DNA of 64,000 nucleotides, taken from a virus. Below the pieces are notes generated by a model. It did not search any database, had not been told where the DNA came from, and saw only the letters and a list, made by a program, of their open reading frames with translations. Made by a program: the position numbers and the translations under genes. The stretch lies in the UHGV virus genome UHGV-0240017; one strand, written 5' to 3'. Below are positions 14,660 to 54,549 of the stretch, piece after piece (the first letter of the stretch is position 1; each line of letters begins with the position of its first letter).

Positions 14660-14695
14660 GTAAAAACAAAAAAGAAAGGGGAACCGAAGTTCCCC
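14660..14695 (-). terminator. intrinsic terminator (UUCG loop)
   Basis: ggggaac-cgaa-gttcccc, read on the minus strand as GGGGAAC-UUCG-GUUCCCC followed by a U-run. Confidence 0.7.
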
Positions 14696-28022: not shown

Positions 28023-30740
28023 ATGGACGATATTAGTAAATTAACGGGCGACCCCGCCGTAGCTGCAATTCTTCGTAAAACTACGGGCCCAGCACCCCAG
28101 CAACAACGCGGTACGCGTAGCGAGGGTGGTTCTACGCCAACACGTCAGGAACTTGCAGGAATTGTAAGTTCGCGTATTCGTACTATCAAAAATGCGGAAC
28201 GTATCTTTGATGCGTTACCTGAACTCGAAACGATTGTTACCATTGCAACTTCGAGCTTGCTGTCGACAAAAGACTTAATCAACACCACGTTGATTTACGA
28301 CAACATCGCAGACATTCCAATTGACTTACGTAATGACTTACTGACACCAACTCGTGATTATCATGATAACGTACGTCAATTACCTAAGAAATTATATCAG
28401 TGGATTTACGACGCGTTAAAAACAAAAGGCGCAAGTCCAGTGATGATAATCTCGGACAACGGATTTGACCAGCTGTTCGGTTTAGACACCAAAGTCGCTA
28501 CCGAATCCATGCGACGTTCTCAAGCCGCCTATTTCGAGGAACAACTCGGTATTCTCGGTCCAATTAACGCGCAAGGTGACGGGCAACGCGTAGGTGTGGA
28601 ATCTATTCTGAGCCGTGTCCGTGGACCTGTTAATGGACCACAATCACTGAAAATCAATTTCAGTAACCATGATAAGATGTTCTCAGATAAGTTCGAAATG
28701 GACATCACGATTACCGACAACCCACGTATCACGTTACTGCCCCATGCTTATCGTCGAATCGCGCATGAGAACGCTCGTACTGGTCTCTACGGCCAATTAG
28801 AGCAAGCCGCATATGAAAAGCCTGCCACACCGACAGGTGCCACGCCGTATGAAGTTAATCAACAGTTTAACGATCGTCAGCGTGACGCGGCTGAAAACGG
28901 CTTCATTAACTTAGGCGATCTGAACGAAGCGTACAAAGGTACACCAAAAACTCAGACATATGGTGATATTCCGATTATTTCGATGAATGAAAACAATCAA
29001 ATCGAATATTTCGAATGTTTACTCCCTGCTGAGTCTACCGCACCGTTGGTTATCGGTGACGACGTTCGTAACCCTATTGGGTTTCTGACCATTATTGACG
29101 ATATGGGTAACTTCATCAACTCACGTTCTTCACTTTACGGAGACGCGAACTTTATGAACTACCTTAATAATGACGGCATGACAGACAGTATTATCAACCG
29201 CTCTAATTTGGGTTTGGGTAATACCTCTCGTATAACGCCAGAGATCGCCAACCGTTTAAGTGCCCGTTGTAGCGAGATTGCTGAGAACGAATTTACCCGT
29301 GCGTTAAGCCAGGCATTGGGTGGAGCTGAAATCAGCATGAAAATTACCGAAACTTTCGGTCGTATTCTGCTGGCACGTCACCTCGCAAAACGTCACACAC
29401 AGGTTGTCTATATCCCGGTTAATAACTTGTGCTACTTTGCAACGGACTTTAACGAAGATGGTATTGGGGTGTCTATCACTGAGCGTTCCTTTATCATTTC
29501 TACGGTCAGGATGGCGCTGTTGTTCGCAACGATGAACTCTTCAGTGTTGAACTCAGCACGTCACATGCAATACGACATTGAGTTATCGCCGGACGATATG
29601 AACGGCCAGAAAACGGTTGACCAGGTTAAATCGGATATCCTTAACTCCTATAATCGTCGTTTACCGATGTGGGGTGATATCAATGACGCTTGGTCAATGG
29701 GGGCTAATGCCGGGATTGCATTTAACGTGACGGGTAATGAATACTACGCCAGTCATAAAGTGTCAGTTTCGGACACAACGCCCGAGTATAAAGTACCCGA
29801 TCAACAAATCGATGAGAACTTACTCCGTCGTACTTGTCACATCGCGTGTGTAGACCCGGATCTTGTTTTGACGCCGGAAAACCTGGAATTTGCTTCGCAG
29901 ATTTATTCCAAGTCACTGCTGGTCACTCAGCAAATCGTGAAGAAACAAGAAATTCTGTCTACGCCGTTAACACGCTACGTGACAAACAGTTTGCAAGCCT
30001 CTCCTAAGTTACAAGCAGAGTTGATTCGTATTATTGTTGAATATATTCGCAATCAGAATCCTAATGTAACAGGTGAAGACTTGACCAAACAAACGTCAGA
30101 GTATCTGGCGAAGTTCATCAATGGCATGAAAGTCACCTTACCACCACCAGACACTTCAGCTTCTTCTTCACAAGCGGATCTGTTTGATAAACGCTATGAG
30201 TTCATTGAGAAACTGGCGGATCTGGTTGTTACCGACGATATTTCGAATATGCTTCAGAATGAAGGTATCGAAATGCAGCCTGATGATCTCAAGACGATGA
30301 TTAAATCGTTCTATACGCGTAACTGGCTGCGTAATCAAGGCATCGAAACCGATCTGTTTGATTTGATCTACGACGAAGATAAACGTGGTGAAAACGTCAA
30401 GATGATTTCTGATGAAATCGCAGCAGCATCGAAGACGCTGATTCAGTTAGCTAAACGCACAACAGGTAAAGTTGAAACCTTAGCAAAAGCGGCTGATTTG
30501 AATCCTGAGGACGCCAATAACTTCGGCGGGGGTAGCGACTTCGGTGGCGGCTCTGAAGACGACGGTGGCTTAGGGGGCGATGAGGAATTAGGTGGTGACG
30601 ATATGGGCGGTGATGAAGACTTGGACATGTCTGATGATGAAACGACGGAAACCGATACAACAACGGAAGAAGACGTTTCTGCTGAAGACACAGACGAGAC
30701 GGATACCGGTACAGACGACAGCGCCGACGAAACTCTCTAA
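28023..30740 (+). CDS. large hypothetical protein with Gly/Asp/Glu/Thr-rich acidic C-terminal tail
   Basis: 905 aa; last ~75 residues are low-complexity acidic; intrinsic terminator immediately downstream. Confidence 0.6.
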   Translation: MDDISKLTGDPAVAAILRKTTGPAPQQQRGTRSEGGSTPTRQELAGIVSSRIRTIKNAERIFDALPELETIVTIATSSLLSTKDLINTTLIYDNIADIPIDLRNDLLTPTRDYHDNVRQLPKKLYQWIYDALKTKGASPVMIISDNGFDQLFGLDTKVATESMRRSQAAYFEEQLGILGPINAQGDGQRVGVESILSRVRGPVNGPQSLKINFSNHDKMFSDKFEMDITITDNPRITLLPHAYRRIAHENARTGLYGQLEQAAYEKPATPTGATPYEVNQQFNDRQRDAAENGFINLGDLNEAYKGTPKTQTYGDIPIISMNENNQIEYFECLLPAESTAPLVIGDDVRNPIGFLTIIDDMGNFINSRSSLYGDANFMNYLNNDGMTDSIINRSNLGLGNTSRITPEIANRLSARCSEIAENEFTRALSQALGGAEISMKITETFGRILLARHLAKRHTQVVYIPVNNLCYFATDFNEDGIGVSITERSFIISTVRMALLFATMNSSVLNSARHMQYDIELSPDDMNGQKTVDQVKSDILNSYNRRLPMWGDINDAWSMGANAGIAFNVTGNEYYASHKVSVSDTTPEYKVPDQQIDENLLRRTCHIACVDPDLVLTPENLEFASQIYSKSLLVTQQIVKKQEILSTPLTRYVTNSLQASPKLQAELIRIIVEYIRNQNPNVTGEDLTKQTSEYLAKFINGMKVTLPPPDTSASSSQADLFDKRYEFIEKLADLVVTDDISNMLQNEGIEMQPDDLKTMIKSFYTRNWLRNQGIETDLFDLIYDEDKRGENVKMISDEIAAASKTLIQLAKRTTGKVETLAKAADLNPEDANNFGGGSDFGGGSEDDGGLGGDEELGGDDMGGDEDLDMSDDETTETDTTTEEDVSAEDTDETDTGTDDSADETL

Positions 30741-36157: not shown

Positions 36158-38452
36158 TTACTTACCAGCAGCAGCTTTGCCTTCGCCAGCAACGTTACCT
36201 GCTACACCACCTTCGGTTTGTTTCTGACCGTTCTGTTCAACAGAAACATTGTAAGCCAGTTTTTCTTCAACCAGTTTGGTGATGCCTTTAACCCAGATCA
36301 GACCAGTGATCGGGCAGTGGCAGATGTGCGCGTTGCGCGGCTGTACGGCCAGCTCTTTAGAGGTAGAACCGTTACGCTGAATGTTGATGTTAGTAACCAT
36401 GATCGGAGACCAGAAGTGGTTACCCCAGTTCAGCACGTTGTAGGAACCATCGTCCGCAGTCGGAACTTTCAGGAACCATTGCAGACGACGAGTCCAGGAA
36501 CCGTCAGCTGCGTTGTAGATACGCCAGCGGTCATCGTTGGTGGTGATCACTTCGTATTCGTAGCGATCGCCCAGCAGACGTTGGTCACCTTGTACCAGCA
36601 GCAGCATGGATGCAGTCGGTTCGTCGGTTGCAATAACAACCTTCGGCAGAATGTCCGGATCGGCAGTGTACAGACGCAGCGCAGGAATGAAGCGAGATTC
36701 CTGGATAGCCTGAGTTACCTGATTACCGATACGCTGTACCAGGCCCTGACGAGCGTTGATCAGTGCATCTTTGGTATCCAGGGACTGTACAACTTTATCA
36801 ACGTTGTAGTCAGACTCTTTGAACCACGGAGCAACCCAGTGACGGCCCAGGCCACGAATGGCCGGTTTGTCCCACGGAGTGATCATGCTTGCAGCAGCGT
36901 TACGTACCGCTTCGGTGTAAGACAGCGTCTGAGTGATAGCCAGCTGTTCGTTACGGATGTTAACTGCGGAAATCAGGTCGTCCAGACGTTCGGTATCGTC
37001 GTATTCAACGCCAACCGGAGACTTGGTCAGAATCGGAGAACCGTATTGCAGCTTGTAGTTTTCTTGTTCCCAGATTGGGTCGAGCAGCAGACCCTGGGTA
37101 CGACGGTTTTCGTTGGTACGAGTACCATCGAAGCGCCAGCCGATCAGTTCAAGTTTCAGATTTTCCAGGACAGCTTTGCCGGTACCAGTCTTGATATCAA
37201 CTTTGTTACCGGTAGCGTCGTACAGACCTTCGATTTCCAGTTTGTGACCAGCAATGTCAACTTTACCACCGAACTGACCGGTAGTGAACAGAGACATGTT
37301 GATGGTGATCACGTAACGCAGAGTGTAGGAGTTCTGTTCCAGTGTTTTCAGAGCCGGAATAGCTTCGCCTTTCCAGTCGGTAGTTTTCGCGTTCAGAGAG
37401 AACGCAGTACGACGGAATTGCAGTACCAGCTCACGGCCATCACCTTCAGCAGGACGCTGGAAGGTTGCGAACTGCATGTCACGAACGTGCAGTTTAATGA
37501 ATTTACCTGCTTTTGCATCTTCAGCCGCTTTACGTACGGAAATCAGCAGGCTGCCCAGAGCACAACCCGGCGCGATTTCATCAGTTTCGTCGTAACCTTC
37601 GATGACGATACCCGGATGCGCAGACAGCTGGAACAGGTTCAGAGTGTCTTTAGCAAAACTCAGGTAGTTAGTCGGGTACGGAGGTACACGGCCCAGGCGA
37701 ACAGATTCGTTCGGTACCAGATCTTCGCTTACGAAGTATTCCGCGTTTTCACCGGTTTCCATTACGTAAGGAACGATGTTGATCGCTTCGTCCTGGAGAA
37801 CGGTGTGGTCAGTCAGCGCTTCGTGCAGGTTACGACGATGATCTTCAACAACATCTTTGCTCAGCAGTGCGTTCATTACACCACGAGAAACGGTGGTCAC
37901 TTTGGTACGTACGGTAATACCAACATCGTTGGTGTCAACAGTGATGGTCGGGAACAGAGTCTCAGCGAAACGAGACTGGGTTTCCAGAGCACGTACGTTC
38001 AGCGTCCAGGTCAGACCCAGGTTTTTGTCGTAGTCTTTGTTGGTGTAGTATTCCTGAGCGACAACCATACGCTCTTTGCCCCAGTCGCCGTTACCAGCTT
38101 GGGAACCAGGAATCGCAACGTCCAGGTTAAAACGGCTATGGAATTCTGGCTTAGCGTATTCTTGCGCTACTTTTTCTTGCAGGTCCATACCGTGACCAGC
38201 AGCACCCAGAATCATTGCAGAAGCAACTTCCGCAGCGTGGGACATTTTCTTACCGCCAGCAAACGCGTTTGCGTAGTGCTGTGCAGCATCGTCACGCAGG
38301 GTACCAAAAACTTTCGTGTTGCTACGTACAGACTCACCAGCAACGATGGTGTTCCACATTTCGCCAGCAGTGTTGTTACTAATGACGCTTTGTACCAGCG
38401 AGTTACCAGCTTGTACGAGTTTCTCCAGATTAGAGATTCGGGTATCTTTCAT
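36158..38452 (-). CDS. major capsid protein candidate (large jumbo-phage-type)
   Basis: 764 aa; extreme codon bias; strong terminator; A-x-E sites in the N-terminal ~150 aa (AGE, AAE, AQE); size matches phiKZ-like capsid proteins as I recall. A tail sheath is the alternative. Confidence 0.45.
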   Translation of the reverse strand: MKDTRISNLEKLVQAGNSLVQSVISNNTAGEMWNTIVAGESVRSNTKVFGTLRDDAAQHYANAFAGGKKMSHAAEVASAMILGAAGHGMDLQEKVAQEYAKPEFHSRFNLDVAIPGSQAGNGDWGKERMVVAQEYYTNKDYDKNLGLTWTLNVRALETQSRFAETLFPTITVDTNDVGITVRTKVTTVSRGVMNALLSKDVVEDHRRNLHEALTDHTVLQDEAINIVPYVMETGENAEYFVSEDLVPNESVRLGRVPPYPTNYLSFAKDTLNLFQLSAHPGIVIEGYDETDEIAPGCALGSLLISVRKAAEDAKAGKFIKLHVRDMQFATFQRPAEGDGRELVLQFRRTAFSLNAKTTDWKGEAIPALKTLEQNSYTLRYVITINMSLFTTGQFGGKVDIAGHKLEIEGLYDATGNKVDIKTGTGKAVLENLKLELIGWRFDGTRTNENRRTQGLLLDPIWEQENYKLQYGSPILTKSPVGVEYDDTERLDDLISAVNIRNEQLAITQTLSYTEAVRNAAASMITPWDKPAIRGLGRHWVAPWFKESDYNVDKVVQSLDTKDALINARQGLVQRIGNQVTQAIQESRFIPALRLYTADPDILPKVVIATDEPTASMLLLVQGDQRLLGDRYEYEVITTNDDRWRIYNAADGSWTRRLQWFLKVPTADDGSYNVLNWGNHFWSPIMVTNINIQRNGSTSKELAVQPRNAHICHCPITGLIWVKGITKLVEEKLAYNVSVEQNGQKQTEGGVAGNVAGEGKAAAGK

Positions 38453-50513: not shown

Positions 50514-51155
50514 TCATAAATCTTCAAAGAAAGTAACAACTGCTTCCGAAAGACTAATTTCGAATAGTCCGAAGGTGTTCTCATCTTCGTATTCTTTACT
50601 AGCTATTAGGGGTAATAATTTAAAACAATCGAAAGCCCCATCAGTAACTTTCAACACACGTGGGATTCTTTTCATCCCTTCTATAAGTTCTGACACCGTT
50701 TCCATAACAGCTTCCGCCGATTTTTCAACGGTTTCATACACAGCTTCGTTTTCTGTTGGTGCGATTAAGTGAAAGAAACAAACTGAATCGTACATCCCAT
50801 TTTCTTTTTCACGCAATGCTACGTGACTATCAAGAAACGCATGGTACGTTACTCCGTCATATTCGGCACATCCGATGTCGCGAGTTTTATGCTTGCCGTT
50901 CAGTTCTTTAGCAATGCTGTCCAGTTTATCTTGGGTTATGTCTTTGAAAACAAACTCACGTGTACCAACTAATAAGCCACCCTTCGCTTGGTCTTTAGGT
51001 TTCTTACCAGAAAGTAAGCGCAACCAGGTAGAAATAGAAATCAGTTCTACCGGATTTAAAGTAACAACTTTACTATTCGGTGCCACCATCGTAACAACAC
51101 CTTTATCCGTAGACACAACACCATCAACAAAATCAGTTAAATTAATGCGGCTCAT
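50514..51155 (-). CDS. hypothetical protein
   Basis: ORF track 50514..51182; start set to MSRINL at 51155 (AGGAG RBS 8 nt upstream), ~50 nt downstream of the promoter-like motif. Confidence 0.5.
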   Translation of the reverse strand: MSRINLTDFVDGVVSTDKGVVTMVAPNSKVVTLNPVELISISTWLRLLSGKKPKDQAKGGLLVGTREFVFKDITQDKLDSIAKELNGKHKTRDIGCAEYDGVTYHAFLDSHVALREKENGMYDSVCFFHLIAPTENEAVYETVEKSAEAVMETVSELIEGMKRIPRVLKVTDGAFDCFKLLPLIASKEYEDENTFGLFEISLSEAVVTFFEDL

Positions 51156-51205
51156 GATATTTCTCCTAAACGTAATAAACAAGTCGTAAAGAGATTACTG
51201 TGTAA

Positions 51206-51233
51206 TCTCACCTAGGTAATATATATCTGAAAA
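51206..51233 (-). promoter_or_regulatory. conserved promoter-like motif (coding strand TCAGATATATATTACCTAGGTGAGA) plus hairpin
   Basis: Near-identical to the copies at 15795 and 42950; followed by inverted repeat gagattac-tgt-gtaatctc. Confidence 0.55.
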
Positions 51234-51245
51234 TTATTTTAATCG

Positions 51246-51293
51246 AAAAAAAAAAGAAAAGAGAGAACCACCCCATTACAGGGTGGTTCTCTT
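51246..51293 (-). terminator. intrinsic terminator
   Basis: gagagaaccacc-ccattaca-gggtggttctc preceded on the plus strand by an A-run. Confidence 0.7.
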
Positions 51294-51309
51294 ACTAAAC
51301 AATCAGGGA

Positions 51310-52575
51310 TTATTTAGATTTTTCGTAAGCGCCGATACCGGCACTCAGGTAACCGTTCAGACCACCGGCCAGGTGTTTCTGAGTAGAAGCAATAACCTTC
51401 TCACCCAGAGACAGACCCTGGTTAACGCTGGTGATGAAACGACGGGCAGCACGTACACCTTCGGTCAGTTCCGGTTTTTCGTCGATCTTAACTTTATCGA
51501 CTTCTTTCAGGAGCTTATCGATATTATCTTCAAAGGTTTTACGCGCGCTTTCGACTTTACGATAATCCTGAACGTTTTTCTCAATCTGTTTACCCACTTC
51601 GTTGAAGAGGGCATTAATTTTGGCCAGTTCGCCAACAGACGGAGTTTTCACGCTAGTTTCAACGCTGTTTTCAGCTTCAACAAAGGTGGAGCTGAAGCCG
51701 CCTTCGTTGTCATACTCGGTTTTCACCGCCATGTTACCGAGCTTGAAGTTTTGGAGACTGTCTTGTTTGGACAGTTCGGTAAAGTCGGCTTTCAGTTTTT
51801 CAACTTTAACACCATTACCTTTGGTAACATCGGAAACCACTTCAGCAGCTTTAGCGGCCATGGCAGGCATCTTAGCGCTATAGAACGAGGAGACCTGGTT
51901 AAGGATACCTTTCAGTTTCGGAATATTATCGCCGACGAACTTGCCGTCGATAGACAGAGACTTGATAAAGCCACCAGAGATCTCATCTTTCTTCTGTTTG
52001 CCCAGCTTACGAATAACTTCATCGTATTTCTTAGCACGCGCCTGAATAGATTTACCCTGGTTGTGGAATTTCAGCCAGCGATCTTTCAGTTTGCGGCCTT
52101 GTTCTTTCAGCCAATCGAGAATACGGCCCAGGAAGGCTTTGATGTCTTCCCACAGGGATTCACGAGCAACCTGACGACGGTTACGAGAACCGTAGGATTC
52201 GTGAGCAACAGAAGAACGGTGTTCGAAGTTCCAACGAGAACGGATAGATTCCTGAGCAACGTCCAGCGCAGTCGCAGCGTCGTCCGGCATATCTTCTTCG
52301 GCGTCCATCGGTTCTTCACCGTCTTCGCCAGCACCTTCACCGTCAGCAGCAGCCTGAGCTTCATCCAGAACATCCAGCTGAGCGTCAGTTTCGTCGCCGT
52401 CTTCTGCCAGCAGTTCAGCGTCAGCGTCCAGAGCTTCGATCGGTTTGGTGTCATGCTCGATATCGGCCAGAGTGCCTTCTACGGATTCTGCTGGCAGTTC
52501 GATGCCGTCTGGAACTACAGTAGAAGTAGACTCCATAGACTCACGAGCAATTTTGTTTTTGTAGAAATTCGCCAT
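51310..52575 (-). CDS. acidic head/inner-body-type protein candidate, paralog 1
   Basis: Start set to MANFYKNKIARESMES to match the paralog; repeated A-x-E motifs (ARES, AHES, AQES); C-terminus GLNGYLSAGIGAYEKSK; strong codon bias. Confidence 0.5.
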   Translation of the reverse strand: MANFYKNKIARESMESTSTVVPDGIELPAESVEGTLADIEHDTKPIEALDADAELLAEDGDETDAQLDVLDEAQAAADGEGAGEDGEEPMDAEEDMPDDAATALDVAQESIRSRWNFEHRSSVAHESYGSRNRRQVARESLWEDIKAFLGRILDWLKEQGRKLKDRWLKFHNQGKSIQARAKKYDEVIRKLGKQKKDEISGGFIKSLSIDGKFVGDNIPKLKGILNQVSSFYSAKMPAMAAKAAEVVSDVTKGNGVKVEKLKADFTELSKQDSLQNFKLGNMAVKTEYDNEGGFSSTFVEAENSVETSVKTPSVGELAKINALFNEVGKQIEKNVQDYRKVESARKTFEDNIDKLLKEVDKVKIDEKPELTEGVRAARRFITSVNQGLSLGEKVIASTQKHLAGGLNGYLSAGIGAYEKSK

Positions 52576-52657
52576 TTTAAGCTTTTCCTCTAAGGGGAAC
52601 AATACGTTCCCCTGATGATTTATTTCAAGAACTGTACGGAACTACGAATCTAAATGA

Positions 52658-53929
52658 TTATTTAGATTTTTCGTAAGCACCGATACCAGCACCCAGGTAG
52701 CCATTCAGACCGCTAATAACGGTGTTAGCAACATAGCTAACTGCGCGGTTCAGGGTCTGGTAGTTCTTAACAGACCAATCGGCAGCTTGACGTGCGTTAC
52801 GCAGGCCATCCCACTTGCTATCGTCTTTTTCGTTGTTCAGCGCCTTAGCAGCATTCTCAGCAGCCTGTTGCAGCTTCACGATTTCAGAATCGTAAGCACG
52901 GAAATCTTTCAGTACGGCTTCGAAGCCTTTACCGATTGCTTCCAGAGCAGAAGCAGCACCAGCCATTTCAGAAACAGACGGAGTTTTCACGTCTTTATCG
53001 TCAGAAGCGTCACCGGTGCTCATGAAAGCAATTGCGGTGAACTTGTGGCCGCCAGCCAGTTCTTTAGTACCAGCCTGAATGTATGCGTTGCCTGGCAGTG
53101 CCAGCAGTTTAGACGCATCGCCTTTTTCAAAATTCGGCAGAGAATGCAGTTTAGACGCTGCTTTACCGAACAGGTCTACAGGCTGATCGCCGCGCATTGC
53201 TTTGAAGGAATCGTCGTCACCCTTGCTCACAGCAGTTACAGCTTCACCGGCCTGTTTTTCCAGAGCACTGATGGAACCTTTAGCTTTACCAGCAGTAACT
53301 TCTTTCGCAATAGCGATAGAGCCAGCAGCATCGAATTTACCTTCGATAGACAGCTTGGTGATAAACCCGCCAGAGATTTCATCTTTCTTCTGTTTGCCCA
53401 GCTTACGCAGCATTTCCTGATATTTCTTCGCACGTTTCTGCGCGGTCTTACCGACGTTGAAATATTTCAGTTTCAGGTCTTTGATCTTCGCAATCACTTC
53501 TTTACAGAACTGAATGAAACGATCGTAAAGATCTTTCAGGGTTTCTTTCCAACCTTCCTGGGCAGCAGCAGTCATACCACGGCCACGACGATAGGATTCG
53601 CGAGCCAGTTTAGTACGTTCCAGGCACCAACGACGTGCGATGGATTCCTGTGCCACTTCGTGCAGGGCAACCGCTTCTTCCGGCATTTCTTCACCGTTAG
53701 CAACGGCTTCTTCCGCCTGTTCGATAGCGTCTTCAGTACGCTCGGTATCGGCAGCCAGGGTTTCACCGTCGGTTTCCAGCTGATCGAGCTGACCGTCGAT
53801 AGATGCTACGTCCGCAAGTTGGACGTCCAGGTTCTCTTCTGCCGGTTCAACGTTGCTGATACCGTCGATTACTTCATCGGCCGCTTCCATCGATTCACGA
53901 GCGGCGCGAGTTTTTGCGAAATTTGCCAT
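52658..53929 (-). CDS. acidic head/inner-body-type protein candidate, paralog 2
   Basis: MANFAKTRAARESMEA...; shared blocks RKLGKQKKDEISGGFI and GLNGYLGAGIGAYEKSK; last ~50 nt nearly identical to paralog 1. Confidence 0.5.
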   Translation of the reverse strand: MANFAKTRAARESMEAADEVIDGISNVEPAEENLDVQLADVASIDGQLDQLETDGETLAADTERTEDAIEQAEEAVANGEEMPEEAVALHEVAQESIARRWCLERTKLARESYRRGRGMTAAAQEGWKETLKDLYDRFIQFCKEVIAKIKDLKLKYFNVGKTAQKRAKKYQEMLRKLGKQKKDEISGGFITKLSIEGKFDAAGSIAIAKEVTAGKAKGSISALEKQAGEAVTAVSKGDDDSFKAMRGDQPVDLFGKAASKLHSLPNFEKGDASKLLALPGNAYIQAGTKELAGGHKFTAIAFMSTGDASDDKDVKTPSVSEMAGAASALEAIGKGFEAVLKDFRAYDSEIVKLQQAAENAAKALNNEKDDSKWDGLRNARQAADWSVKNYQTLNRAVSYVANTVISGLNGYLGAGIGAYEKSK

Positions 53930-53988
53930 TTCGTTTATTTCCTTTGGTTATATAACCCAATTACACGCCCCTAGAATGAGGGGCCCCC

Positions 53989-54549
53989 TTAGGGACGTGC
54001 GATTTTCAAAAACACTGCTAACGACGAGATCATGTCGGACAACCCGTTCGGGCGCGTCATCCAGCGTGCCAGCAGTTCATGGTCTGCATAAGATAAAAGA
54101 CGTTTGCTACACTCAACAGATTGGTGAGCAGAGCCCATATTACGTACAGTACCTCGGCGACCAAACGCAGCAGCTAATAGACGCGAGCCTAATGCACCCG
54201 TCTGTTCAACATTCTTCGTGTTACGAACATCGTTCATATACGACGACAGCAAAGTCGACCACTGCCCTAACGTCACATTACGTCGCTTACCATCCAGCAA
54301 GAAATCTACACTTTCGTTATAAAACGTATTAAAGGTAAATCCGACCTGCGGATATTCGTCATATAATACCTGCTGCAATGAGTCAGCAGCCATCAGACGA
54401 AAATACGGTAAAACAACGGCAGCGGCTTCCAGCGTTTTGTGAATAACTTCGTCATCGTGTGTGTCGATTGGGTTTTTCGATAAAATCGACATGTAGGATT
54501 TAATGCGCTCTACAGCAACATTAAATTCTGGACTATCGTGCTCAAACAT
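53989..54549 (-). CDS. hypothetical protein
   Basis: 186-aa ORF. Confidence 0.5.
   Translation of the reverse strand: MFEHDSPEFNVAVERIKSYMSILSKNPIDTHDDEVIHKTLEAAAVVLPYFRLMAADSLQQVLYDEYPQVGFTFNTFYNESVDFLLDGKRRNVTLGQWSTLLSSYMNDVRNTKNVEQTGALGSRLLAAAFGRRGTVRNMGSAHQSVECSKRLLSYADHELLARWMTRPNGLSDMISSLAVFLKIARP

What the first reader, a model, noticed from the sequence alone, without database searches (positions are those of the whole stretch)
51310..53929. Tandem paralogous acidic proteins packed with A-x-E motifs and sharing near-identical 3' ends
Two adjacent genes encode 421- and 423-aa paralogs with acidic N-terminal ~100-aa regions, repeated ARES/AQES/AHES motifs, and shared blocks RKLGKQKKDEISGGFI and GLNGYL(S/G)AGIGAYEKSK. 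A-x-E is the cleavage motif reported for phiKZ-type prohead proteases, so these look like processed head or inner-body proteins. The last ~50 nt of both genes are almost identical, suggesting recent gene conversion. A GC hairpin without a U-tract (52594-52612) lies between them and may tune relative expression.
Basis: partly seen in the sequence, partly recalled or inferred. Interest (0 to 1): 0.55.

Follow-up and report, generated by a model that had tools for sequence, protein, structure and literature searches.

The report
Jumbo-phage internal head ejection protein pair
These two adjacent genes are this giant phage's versions of the already-studied SPN3US gp53 and gp54, very abundant proteins packed inside the phage head with the DNA, trimmed by the head protease and, in related phages, injected into the host, so the finding is correct but describes a known kind of protein.

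Summary
Two minus-strand genes (51310-52575, 421 aa; 52658-53929, 423 aa) encode 36%-identical paralogs with acidic N-terminal regions, shared blocks and an intergenic GC hairpin. They are orthologs of Salmonella phage SPN3US gp54 and gp53 (Pfam PF12699). In SPN3US these are present at over 600 copies each per head and are cut by prohead protease gp245 after A-x-E. All five mapped SPN3US sites are conserved here. Only four A-x-E motifs per protein are real candidates; they fit [VAIL]-A-x-E^[S/G] and are kept in 44-48 of 48 relatives. The other A-x-E motifs look like chance. Cleavage would remove a strongly acidic propeptide and leave a basic, mainly helical protein of about 31-32 kDa. The near-identical 3' ends mostly reflect a C-terminal peptide conserved across the family. 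Synonymous sites give no conversion signal there. However, variable residues in the N-terminal, middle and C-terminal blocks co-vary between paralogs within genomes, and the middle block looks like a short 54-to-53 conversion. The hairpin is conserved in 17 genomes with compensatory changes and abuts the gp54 ribosome-binding site; its role is untested. Verdict: new member of a known kind, modest interest.

The parts
52658..53929 (-). Gene B: ortholog of SPN3US gp53 (423 aa precursor, 45.7 kDa), a PF12699 internal head / ejection protein
   Evidence: PF12699 244 bits against a cut-off of 27; PHROG 2497 E = 5e-148. SPN3US gp53 matches B at 67.9% and A at only 33.5%. Synteny gp50-gp51-gp52-gp53-gp54...DHFR.
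51310..52575 (-). Gene A: ortholog of SPN3US gp54 (421 aa precursor, 46.4 kDa), a PF12699 internal head / ejection protein
   Evidence: PF12699 195 bits; PHROG 2497 E = 9e-120. SPN3US gp54 matches A at 59.8% and B at 34.2%.
53555..53929 (-). B propeptide region, residues 1-125 (13.7 kDa, net charge -19). Predicted protease sites: ARE-12 (53894-53902), AQE-95 (53645-53653), ARE-111 (53597-53605) and the maturation site AQE-125^GWKETLKDLYDR (53555-53563)
   Evidence: SPN3US gp53 is cut at ARE-12, AQE-95 and AQE-125^GWKETLKDLFER (PMC10052503, Table 2). The aligned sites are identical in position. A..E is kept in 44-48 of 48 relatives. Charges, coordinates.
52159..52575 (-). A propeptide region, residues 1-139 (15.1 kDa, net charge -27). 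Predicted sites: ARE-12 (52540-52548), AQE-109 (52249-52257), AHE-126 (52198-52206) and the maturation site ARE-139^SLWEDIK (52159-52167)
   Evidence: SPN3US gp54 is cut at AQE-124 and ARE-137^SLWDDIK. These align to AHE-126 and ARE-139. Conservation; coordinates.
52661..53554 (-). B mature domain, residues 126-423 (32.0 kDa, pI 9.3, net charge +10): long helical bundle with a small beta subdomain
   Evidence: AlphaFold2 model with pLDDT 83.7 and pTM 0.82. The fold matches jumbo-phage internal head and virion proteins in BFVD, E down to 7e-20. Charges.
51313..52158 (-). A mature domain, residues 140-421 (31.3 kDa, pI 9.4, net charge +11)
52661..52711 (-). B C-terminal tail GLNGYLGAGIGAYEKSK. 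The counterpart in A, GLNGYLSAGIGAYEKSK, lies at 51313-51363
   Evidence: 46/51 nt identical. The motif is conserved in both paralogs of 13 genomes. Its variable columns co-vary within genomes, 0.60 vs 0.49, P < 1e-4; its conserved columns do not.
53360..53407 (-). B middle block RKLGKQKKDEISGGFI. The counterpart in A lies at 51964-52011. Candidate short 54-to-53 conversion tract
   Evidence: 45/48 nt identical, higher than any cross-genome 53-vs-54 comparison (maximum 0.81). The close relative L016 keeps gp53-type KQDKDNISGGFI with AAC ATT as in SPN3US gp53, while the window, L013, L014 and L015 carry gp54's codons.
52593..52613 (-). Intergenic stem-loop AGGGGAAC-GTATT-GTTCCCCT, 45 nt after the gene B stop and 1 nt before the gene A ribosome-binding site
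   Evidence: A perfect 7-10 bp stem sits at the same place in 17 genomes, with at least 6 different stem sequences. 100% of cells pair against 71% in shuffles (0/500); 5 of 7 pairs change on both sides; slid controls give 41-65%. The two wobble pairs are G-U on the mRNA strand. No T-run follows. No Rfam family matches.
52586..52591 (-). AGAGGA Shine-Dalgarno-like element of gene A, invariant in all genomes compared
   Evidence: Invariant columns in the alignment; coordinates.
53964..53999 (-). Second GC-rich stem-loop without a T-run (CACGTCCCTA...TAGGGGCGTG). It overlaps the stop codon (53989-53991) of the upstream gp52-like gene and precedes gene B
   Evidence: Present and nearly sequence-invariant in 13 genomes; coordinates. 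Its 5' arm is coding, so its conservation is partly protein-driven.
51252..51292 (-). Canonical intrinsic terminator (12-14 bp stem, then CTTTTCTTTTTTTTTT), 17 nt after the gene A stop. It closes the two-gene unit
   Evidence: Terminator scan. A stem plus T-run is conserved after gp54 in all 13 genomes.

Best explanation
The two genes are this phage's gp53 (B) and gp54 (A). They are the paired, very abundant PF12699 internal head proteins of SPN3US-like, phiKZ-related jumbo phages.

Proposed mechanism, with the status of each step:
1. Both genes are expressed late. They appear to form one unit, closed by an intrinsic terminator after gene A (inferred from layout).
2. The precursors enter the prohead. 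In SPN3US, protease-deficient capsids contain a T=1 inner shell made mainly of gp53 and gp54 (shown in SPN3US).
3. The S80 prohead protease cuts after four conserved [V/A/I/L]-A-x-E^[S/G] sites in the N-terminal 125 (B) or 139 (A) residues. This is shown by mass spectrometry for five homologous sites in SPN3US and inferred here from exact site conservation.
4. Cleavage removes a strongly acidic propeptide (net charge -19 and -27). It leaves a basic (+10, +11), mainly helical protein of about 31-32 kDa that stays in the DNA-filled head (charges computed here; retention shown in SPN3US).
5. The mature proteins leave the head with the DNA at infection. In phiKZ and Goslar, PF12699 proteins were shown to enter the cell and co-localise with the early lipid vesicle. 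The SPN3US papers call gp53 and gp54 ejection proteins. For this phage it is inferred.
6. What they do after entry is unknown for the whole family.

The conserved N-terminal 15 residues, the middle block and the glycine-rich C-terminal tail are shared interaction modules. Their variable residues track each other between the two paralogs within each genome.

The hairpin between the genes is a selected mRNA-strand structure directly 5' of the gp54 ribosome-binding site. My best guess is that it shields or stabilises that cistron's start so that both proteins are made in similar amounts.
For: Family: PF12699 at 195 and 244 bits against a cut-off of 27; PHROG 2497 'internal head protein' at E = 1e-119 and 5e-148. 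All 124 homologs found carry PF12699.

Orthology: reciprocal best matches to SPN3US gp53/gp54 and the same gene order. The tandem pair is present in all 12 relatives fetched.

Processing: the SPN3US sites ARE-12, AQE-95 and AQE-125 (gp53) and AQE-124 and ARE-137 (gp54) (PMC10052503) align to A-x-E in the window proteins. The four sites are kept in 44-48 of 48 family members with V/A/I/L at P4 and S or G at P1', matching the published gp245 logo; the other A-x-E motifs are not kept. The pattern [VAIL]A.E[SG] picks exactly these four sites in each protein. Other mapped gp245 substrates in this window keep A-x-E with a different middle residue: gp47 ATE, the major capsid protein AQE^YYTNKD, and the portal ATE^S and AHE^N. 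A relative about 91% identical in DNA encodes an S80 protease 80.9% identical to gp245.

Charge switch.

Fold: confident model matching internal head and virion proteins of 201phi2-1, PhiPA3, RSF1 and Ea35-70.

Biology of orthologs and homologs: more than 600 copies each per head (PMC5694885); T=1 inner shell (PMC7552025); intact propeptides in protease mutants and in vitro cleavage of gp53 (PMC7411985); injection and vesicle association of phiKZ gp93/95/97 (bioRxiv 2024.03.24.586471) and of Goslar gp58 (bioRxiv 10.64898/2026.04.21.720040).

Hairpin. Terminator.
Against: There is no virion proteomics, cleavage data or injection data for this phage; steps 2-5 are transferred from relatives that are 60-68% identical (SPN3US) or much more distant (phiKZ, Goslar). 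Not every PF12699 paralog is injected: phiKZ gp162 stays in the head. ARE-111 (B) and AQE-109 (A) have no mapped counterpart in SPN3US gp53 and gp54 respectively, so they rest on conservation alone. The protease gene is not in the window. The proposed hairpin role has no experimental support. A-x-E enrichment in gene A alone is marginal (P = 0.05).
Confidence: 0.9

Rival explanations
1. The near-identical 3' ends, and the other shared blocks, result from recent gene conversion between the tandem paralogs.
For: Window paralogs are 46/51 identical in the last 17 codons and 45/48 in the middle block. Both values are higher than any cross-genome 53-vs-54 comparison (maxima 0.84 and 0.81). A run test on polymorphic sites picks the middle block in the window, L013, L014 and L015 (P <= 0.0006) and the 5' 45 nt in L016. 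L016 gp53 keeps ancestral gp53-type codons in the middle block, while the window lineage carries gp54's codons. Across genomes, within-genome identity exceeds cross-genome identity in all three blocks (P <= 0.02) but not in the rest of the gene.
Against: For the 3' end itself, the peptide is conserved family-wide. Identical codons among amino-acid-identical positions (12/16) do not exceed the background of 62/96 (P = 0.30), and the longest run of identical codons is not unusual (P = 0.57). The within-genome excess lies only in the amino-acid-variable columns. Conserved-residue columns inside the blocks show none (+0.007, -0.002 and +0.014; P = 0.15-0.56), and neither do 61 control conserved columns (-0.001, P = 0.57). 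SPN3US gp53 and gp54 share 15/15 N-terminal residues but only 8 of 14 degenerate codons. This fits parallel selection on shared docking peptides, or very short tracts of about 25 nt or less, better than a recent 50-nt conversion. The run test does not correct for the higher match rate at conserved positions.
Confidence: 0.25
2. The proteins act mainly as an internal scaffold or capsid cement and are not delivered to the host.
Against: The mature SPN3US proteins stay in DNA-filled heads after the inner shell disappears, and the SPN3US papers call them ejection proteins. The high-copy phiKZ and Goslar homologs gp93, gp95, gp97 and gp58 were seen to enter cells. The two roles are not exclusive: the N-terminal fragments could act as cement while the C-terminal domain is ejected.
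Confidence: 0.12
3. The intergenic hairpin is a leaky terminator or pause site for the phage RNA polymerase, or a 3' protector of the gp53 message. It would lower or uncouple gp54 expression rather than protect the gp54 start.
For: It is a GC-rich stem downstream of a stop codon. A terminator at 14678-14695 uses the same GGGGAAC/GTTCCCC stem. In phage 201phi2-1, only 52 of 132 mapped transcript ends were predicted to be factor-independent terminators, so other 3'-end signals exist in these phages (PMC11512511).
Against: In all 17 genomes the stem is followed within 0-1 nt by the invariant AGAGGA and never by a T-run, whereas the true end of the unit has a classic stem plus T-run. Its fixed distance is to the downstream ribosome-binding site; the distance to the upstream stop codon varies. 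In SPN3US gp54 is as abundant as gp53 (21.0 vs 20.2).
Confidence: 0.3
4. The real genes are the long plus-strand ORFs (51283-52593, 436 aa; 52787-53974, 395 aa).
For: They are long open frames.
Against: Only the minus-strand products match PF12699 and PHROG 2497 and have orthologs. 59 of the 63 gene-like ORFs in the window are on the minus strand. The plus-strand frames are the usual mirror ORFs of codon-biased genes.
Confidence: 0.01

Closest known systems
Salmonella phage SPN3US gp53 and gp54 ('paralog family A', high-abundance ejection proteins)
   Same: Same tandem order and neighbours, similar lengths (425/419 vs 423/421 aa), and 68% and 60% identity. All five mapped gp245 cleavage sites are conserved, as are the MANF..ARES N-terminus, the C-terminal Gly-rich tail, the intergenic hairpin next to AGAGGA, and the terminator after gp54.
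   Different: A different phage lineage: about 76% DNA identity at best to any isolated phage. Gene A's second internal site is AHE, not AQE. The N-terminal 15 residues are 10/15 identical between paralogs here, against 15/15 in SPN3US. The middle block is identical between paralogs here but not in SPN3US. The hairpin stem sequence is entirely different.
phiKZ inner-body / injected proteins gp93, gp95, gp97, gp162 and relatives (PF12699); Goslar gp58 and gp53
   Same: Same Pfam domain and predicted helical fold. All are high-copy head proteins with N-terminal processing by the S80 protease, including a site about 12-13 residues from the N-terminus (phiKZ gp93 SLE-13).
   Different: phiKZ has 7-8 paralogs at about 100-200 copies, and Goslar has one dominant member at about 2000 copies. 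SPN3US-like phages, including this one, have exactly two, which in SPN3US are about equally abundant. The phiKZ protease motif is looser (S/A/G-x-E). Sequence identity is too low for BLAST-level matching.
T4 internal proteins IPI-IPIII with their capsid-targeting sequences
   Same: Functional analogy only: basic proteins packaged with the DNA, targeted by a short N-terminal peptide that the prohead protease removes after a glutamate, and then ejected (PMC5694885, PMC7411985).
   Different: No sequence or fold relationship. The T4 propeptides are 10-20 residues, against 125-139 residues cut at several places here.

Membership tests
Pfam PF12699 (phiKZ_IP, phiKZ-like phage internal head proteins) | Profile match above the curated gathering score over most of the model | tested here: met
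   A: 195 bits, model positions 2-386 of 387. B: 244.2 bits, 2-387 of 387. Cut-off 27.
SPN3US paralog family A (gp53/gp54 orthologs) | Reciprocal best match to gp53 and gp54 respectively, in the syntenic position as a tandem pair | tested here: met
   gp53 matches B at 67.9% (A 33.5%). gp54 matches A at 59.8% (B 34.2%). The flanks match: gp50/51/52-like genes upstream, DHFR downstream.
Substrates of the S80 prohead protease (SPN3US gp245 type) | A-x-E motifs at the positions where cleavage was mapped, with the P4 and P1' preferences | tested here: met
   All five mapped sites are conserved. P4 is V/A/I/L and P1' is S or G in 48 relatives.
Substrates of the S80 prohead protease (SPN3US gp245 type) | Actual cleavage of the protein in proheads or in vitro | not testable with these tools
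   Needs virion mass spectrometry or a recombinant protease assay.
Substrates of the S80 prohead protease (SPN3US gp245 type) | The phage encodes the protease | tested here: inconclusive
   The protease gene is not in the 64-kb window. A relative about 91% identical in DNA (NZ_CP134650.1) encodes a full-length ortholog, 80.9% identical and annotated as an S80 family protease.
Ejection (E) proteins / injected inner-body proteins | Present in the mature virion at high copy and delivered into the host with the DNA | not testable with these tools
   Virion abundance was shown for the SPN3US orthologs. Injection was shown directly for phiKZ gp93/95/97 and Goslar gp58, and phiKZ gp162 is an exception.
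ClyA-family alpha-pore-forming toxins (considered because of weak Foldseek hits) | Significant structural similarity to the ClyA/Hbl/Nhe helical bundle with its beta-tongue | tested here: not met
   [not shown]
Intrinsic (rho-independent) terminator, for the 52593-52613 hairpin | GC-rich stem followed directly by a U-run on the transcribed strand | tested here: not met
   TAGAGGAAAAGC follows the stem on the coding strand in this window, and AGAGGA follows it in all 17 genomes. The scan flags the hairpin only on the non-coding strand.

The most novel reading that the evidence does not exclude
gp53 and gp54 may work as an obligate matched pair. Three short modules are held in step between the two paralogs within each genome, by repeated micro-conversion (about 25 nt or less) or by selection for a shared docking partner: the N-terminal targeting peptide, the RKLGKQKK..GGFI block and the Gly-rich C-terminal tail. 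The co-varying hairpin next to the gp54 ribosome-binding site would keep their output near 1:1. If true, the terminal peptides would be the specificity code for loading more than a thousand internal proteins into a giant capsid, and they could be swapped to test that.
Probability: 0.3. Interest if true: 0.45.

Novelty: new member of a known kind. Interest (0 to 1): 0.3.

Why it matters
PF12699 proteins are among the most abundant components of chimallivirus virions. A 2026 structural study calls their role 'a key unsolved mystery' of that life cycle. This pair adds no new kind of protein. It does give a clean, two-member version of the family in an enterobacterial phage lineage that has no isolated representative in the phage collection searched. 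It also gives exact predicted processing sites, a marked acidic-to-basic charge switch on maturation, three co-varying peptide modules that could be tested as assembly signals, and a phylogenetically supported RNA hairpin at the gp54 start. These are useful for annotation, because RefSeq calls the close homologs 'hypothetical protein' and one fragment is mislabelled YajC. They are also useful for designing experiments in SPN3US.

Tried and rejected
2. Sequence search of solved structures: nothing (best E = 0.88).
3. Rfam search of 51150-54100 at E <= 1: no family.
4. Sigma-70 promoter scan: 2 sites against 3.9 expected, so uninformative. These phages use their own RNA polymerases in any case.
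5. An AT-rich 'TCATT' box 5' of the hairpin as a possible late promoter: not enriched in intergenic DNA or upstream of genes in the window. The phiKZ late motif TATG is absent from the window's spacer. No transcript maps for SPN3US-like phages turned up in my literature searches.
6. Whole-spacer folding energy against shuffles: weak (z = -0.4 to -2.9). The evidence for the hairpin comes from covariation, not from energy.
7. The MAFFT alignment of the spacer put several stems out of register. I replaced it with a structure-anchored construct; that construct was built from stems already called as paired, so the percentage paired is partly circular, while the compensatory changes and the slid controls are not.
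8. Codon bias as the cause of within-genome paralog similarity: excluded with 61 control conserved columns.
9. Plus-strand mirror ORFs: rejected.
Full report
**Observation.** Both genes are real and lie on the minus strand. Gene A is 51310-52575 (421 aa) and gene B is 52658-53929 (423 aa). The mechanical ORF list extends A to a TTG at 52602. The ATG at 52575 is the true start, because it gives the conserved MANF N-terminus and sits 10 nt after an AGAGGA ribosome-binding site. The proteins are 36% identical (E = 9e-59). Their first 100 residues hold 33 and 28 acidic against 4 and 6 basic residues. The motifs ARES, AQES and AHES, the blocks RKLGKQKKDEISGGFI and GLNGYL(S/G)AGIGAYEKSK, the 46/51 identity of the last 51 nt, and the hairpin at 52593-52613 are all as described.

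**Identity.** Both proteins match Pfam PF12699 (phiKZ-like internal head proteins) at 195 and 244 bits against a cut-off of 27. Both match PHROG 2497 'internal head protein'. The window comes from a relative of the SPN3US, Asesino and Machina group of enterobacterial jumbo phages. No isolated phage in the collection is closer than about 76% in DNA. Protein B is 73% identical to its Asesino counterpart and 68% to the SPN3US one. SPN3US gp53 matches B at 68% and A at 33%. SPN3US gp54 matches A at 60% and B at 34%. The neighbouring genes are in the same order. B is therefore the gp53 ortholog and A the gp54 ortholog. All 12 relatives fetched have the same tandem pair.

**What is known about the orthologs.** In SPN3US, gp53 and gp54 form 'paralog family A'. 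After the major capsid protein they are the most abundant head proteins, at more than 600 copies each (PMC5694885).
- They are cut by the prohead protease gp245 after A-x-E, at ARE-12, AQE-95 and AQE-125 in gp53 and at AQE-124 and ARE-137 in gp54 (PMC10052503).
- They keep their propeptides in protease mutants, and gp53 is cut by recombinant gp245 in vitro (PMC7411985).
- They make up a T=1 inner shell in protease-deficient capsids. They remain in the mature head and are described as ejection proteins (PMC7552025).

In phiKZ, the PF12699 proteins gp93, gp95 and gp97 are injected and co-localise with the early lipid vesicle, while gp162 stays in the head (bioRxiv 2024.03.24.586471). In Goslar, gp58 is present at about 2000 copies per virion and is injected. 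The authors of that study state that the role of these proteins is unknown (bioRxiv 10.64898/2026.04.21.720040).

**Processing sites.** All five mapped SPN3US sites align to A-x-E in the window proteins: ARE-12, AQE-95 and AQE-125^GWKETLKDLYDR in B, and AHE-126 and ARE-139^SLWEDIK in A.
- In a 48-member family alignment, four sites per protein keep A..E in 44-48 members, with V/A/I/L at P4 and S or G at P1'. This matches the published protease logo.
- The remaining 10 (B) and 4 (A) A-x-E motifs are kept in only 3-27 members.
- The pattern [VAIL]A.E[SG] finds exactly the four conserved sites in each protein. The proteins are therefore not 'packed' with sites; each has four, all in the N-terminal third.
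- Other gp245 substrates encoded in this window also keep A-x-E while changing the middle residue: gp47, the major capsid protein at 36185-38452, and the portal at 28023-30515.
- The protease gene lies outside the window. A relative about 91% identical in DNA encodes an S80 protease 80.9% identical to gp245.

**Consequence of processing.** The propeptides carry net charges of -19 (B) and -27 (A). The mature parts are 32.0 and 31.3 kDa with charges of +10 and +11. By inference, the acidic part masks a basic domain until the protease acts and the fragments leave. That leaves over a thousand basic proteins in the head with the DNA. In phiKZ, residues 14-84 of gp93, just after its first cleavage site, stay bound to the inner capsid surface (PMC11297242). 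Some N-terminal fragments here may likewise stay as cement. This would fit the persistent gp53 propeptide peptides seen in SPN3US heads.

**Fold.** An AlphaFold2 model of B is confident (pLDDT 83.7, pTM 0.82). It shows long helices with a small beta subdomain, and low confidence at residues 15-29 and 109-113, next to two of the cleavage sites.
- It matches many jumbo-phage internal head and virion proteins (E down to 7e-20).
- It matches nothing significantly in the PDB by Foldseek.
- A ClyA-like reading was considered and rejected.

**The 3' ends and gene conversion.** The C-terminal 17 residues are conserved in both paralogs of every genome compared.
- Among positions with the same amino acid, the window paralogs share 12/16 codons in the tail and 13/16 in the middle block, against 62/96 elsewhere (P = 0.30 and 0.15). 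The longest run of shared codons is not unusual (P = 0.57). The near-identity of the 3' ends is therefore mostly protein-level constraint.
- Across 13 genomes, paralogs from the same genome are nonetheless more alike than paralogs from different genomes in three blocks: the N-terminal 15 codons (0.82 vs 0.68), the middle block (0.71 vs 0.68) and the tail (0.75 vs 0.71), with P <= 0.02. The rest of the gene shows no such excess.
- The excess lies only in the amino-acid-variable columns, for example 0.79 vs 0.49 at the N-terminus. It is absent from conserved-residue columns and from 61 control columns. This rules out codon bias. It points to matched evolution of shared peptides, either by very short conversion tracts or by selection.
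- The best single case for conversion is the middle block. The close relative L016 keeps gp53-type codons there, while the window and three other close relatives carry gp54's codons.

**The hairpin and the transcription unit.** A perfect 7-10 bp stem lies 0-1 nt before an invariant AGAGGA in all 17 genomes, with at least six different stem sequences. On a structure-anchored alignment, every cell pairs (71% in shuffles; 41-65% when the partner is slid), and 5 of 7 pairs change on both sides. The stems were picked as paired, so the paired fraction is partly circular; the compensatory changes are the real evidence. The two wobble pairs are G-U only on the mRNA strand. No T-run follows the stem. 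The true end of the unit, after gene A, has a classic terminator that is conserved in all genomes. A second hairpin without a T-run overlaps the stop codon of the upstream gene and precedes gene B. Among perfect GC-rich stems in the window, this is the only one that abuts a ribosome-binding site. Its function is unproven. I favour protection or insulation of the gp54 start over termination, because its fixed relationship is to the downstream ribosome-binding site and because the two proteins are about equally abundant in SPN3US.

**Verdict.** The gene-conversion idea is not supported for the 3' end as stated, although a related and subtler co-variation exists. The hairpin is a real, selected element of unknown role. 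This is a new member of a known kind.

Noticed in passing
whole window; L013-L016, L022; NZ_CP173450.1, NZ_CP134650.1: The phage collection searched holds no isolated phage of this lineage. Yet relatives about 91% identical are deposited as circular ~222-kb 'plasmids' of E. coli strain 98232 (human urine) and Enterobacter ludwigii. Relatives 95-98% identical in protein occur on 220-225-kb metagenomic viral contigs. Dozens of homolog clusters sit on 220-227-kb contigs labelled Salmonella, Shigella or E. coli. An SPN3US-like jumbo phage repeatedly assembled from bacterial isolates suggests a carrier state or episomal persistence.
   Followed up: partly
window 52601-52605 vs L013: The hairpin loop is GTATT in the window and AATAC, its reverse complement, in the 97%-identical relative L013. 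The stems are identical, so the whole palindromic hairpin has flipped. L014, L015 and L022 have AACGC, and L016 has ACGTC.
   Followed up: no
window 14678-14695 (minus strand): A canonical terminator, with a TTCG loop followed by TTTCTTTTTTG, uses exactly the same stem (GGGGAAC/GTTCCCC) as the gp53-gp54 hairpin, which lacks the T-run.
   Followed up: no
window about 51205-51240 (minus strand): Just after the gp54 terminator lies TCAGATATATATTACCTAGGTGAG, conserved in most of the relatives. TATATTAC occurs 4 times in the window, 3 of them intergenic. It looks like the AT-rich early-promoter type described for jumbo-phage virion RNA polymerases (PMC7598289). The resemblance to the phiKZ consensus itself is from memory.
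   Followed up: no
window 53964-53999 (minus strand): A GC-rich hairpin overlaps the stop codon of the gp52-like gene and is almost sequence-invariant across phages whose proteins are only about 55-70% identical. It is followed by the palindrome-like GGTTATA(T)AACC just before the gp53 ribosome-binding site.
   Followed up: partly
[not shown]
   Followed up: no
L015, L016, L022 vs window genes A and B: Among close relatives the gp54-type gene is much more diverged than the adjacent gp53-type gene: 82-87% vs 91-94% nucleotide identity. This suggests faster evolution or exchange of gp54 between phages.
   Followed up: no
protein P0004: A 327-aa fragment 95% identical to gene B's product is named 'preprotein translocase subunit YajC, partial [Escherichia coli]' in NCBI. 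This is probably a mis-annotation; the only YajC signal here is a sub-threshold Pfam hit (E = 0.072). RefSeq calls the full-length close homologs 'hypothetical protein'.
   Followed up: no
window 51283-52593 and 52787-53974 (plus strand): Long antisense ORFs of 436 and 395 aa mirror the two genes. They have no homologs and are artefacts of codon bias. 59 of the 63 gene-like ORFs in the window are on the minus strand.
   Followed up: yes
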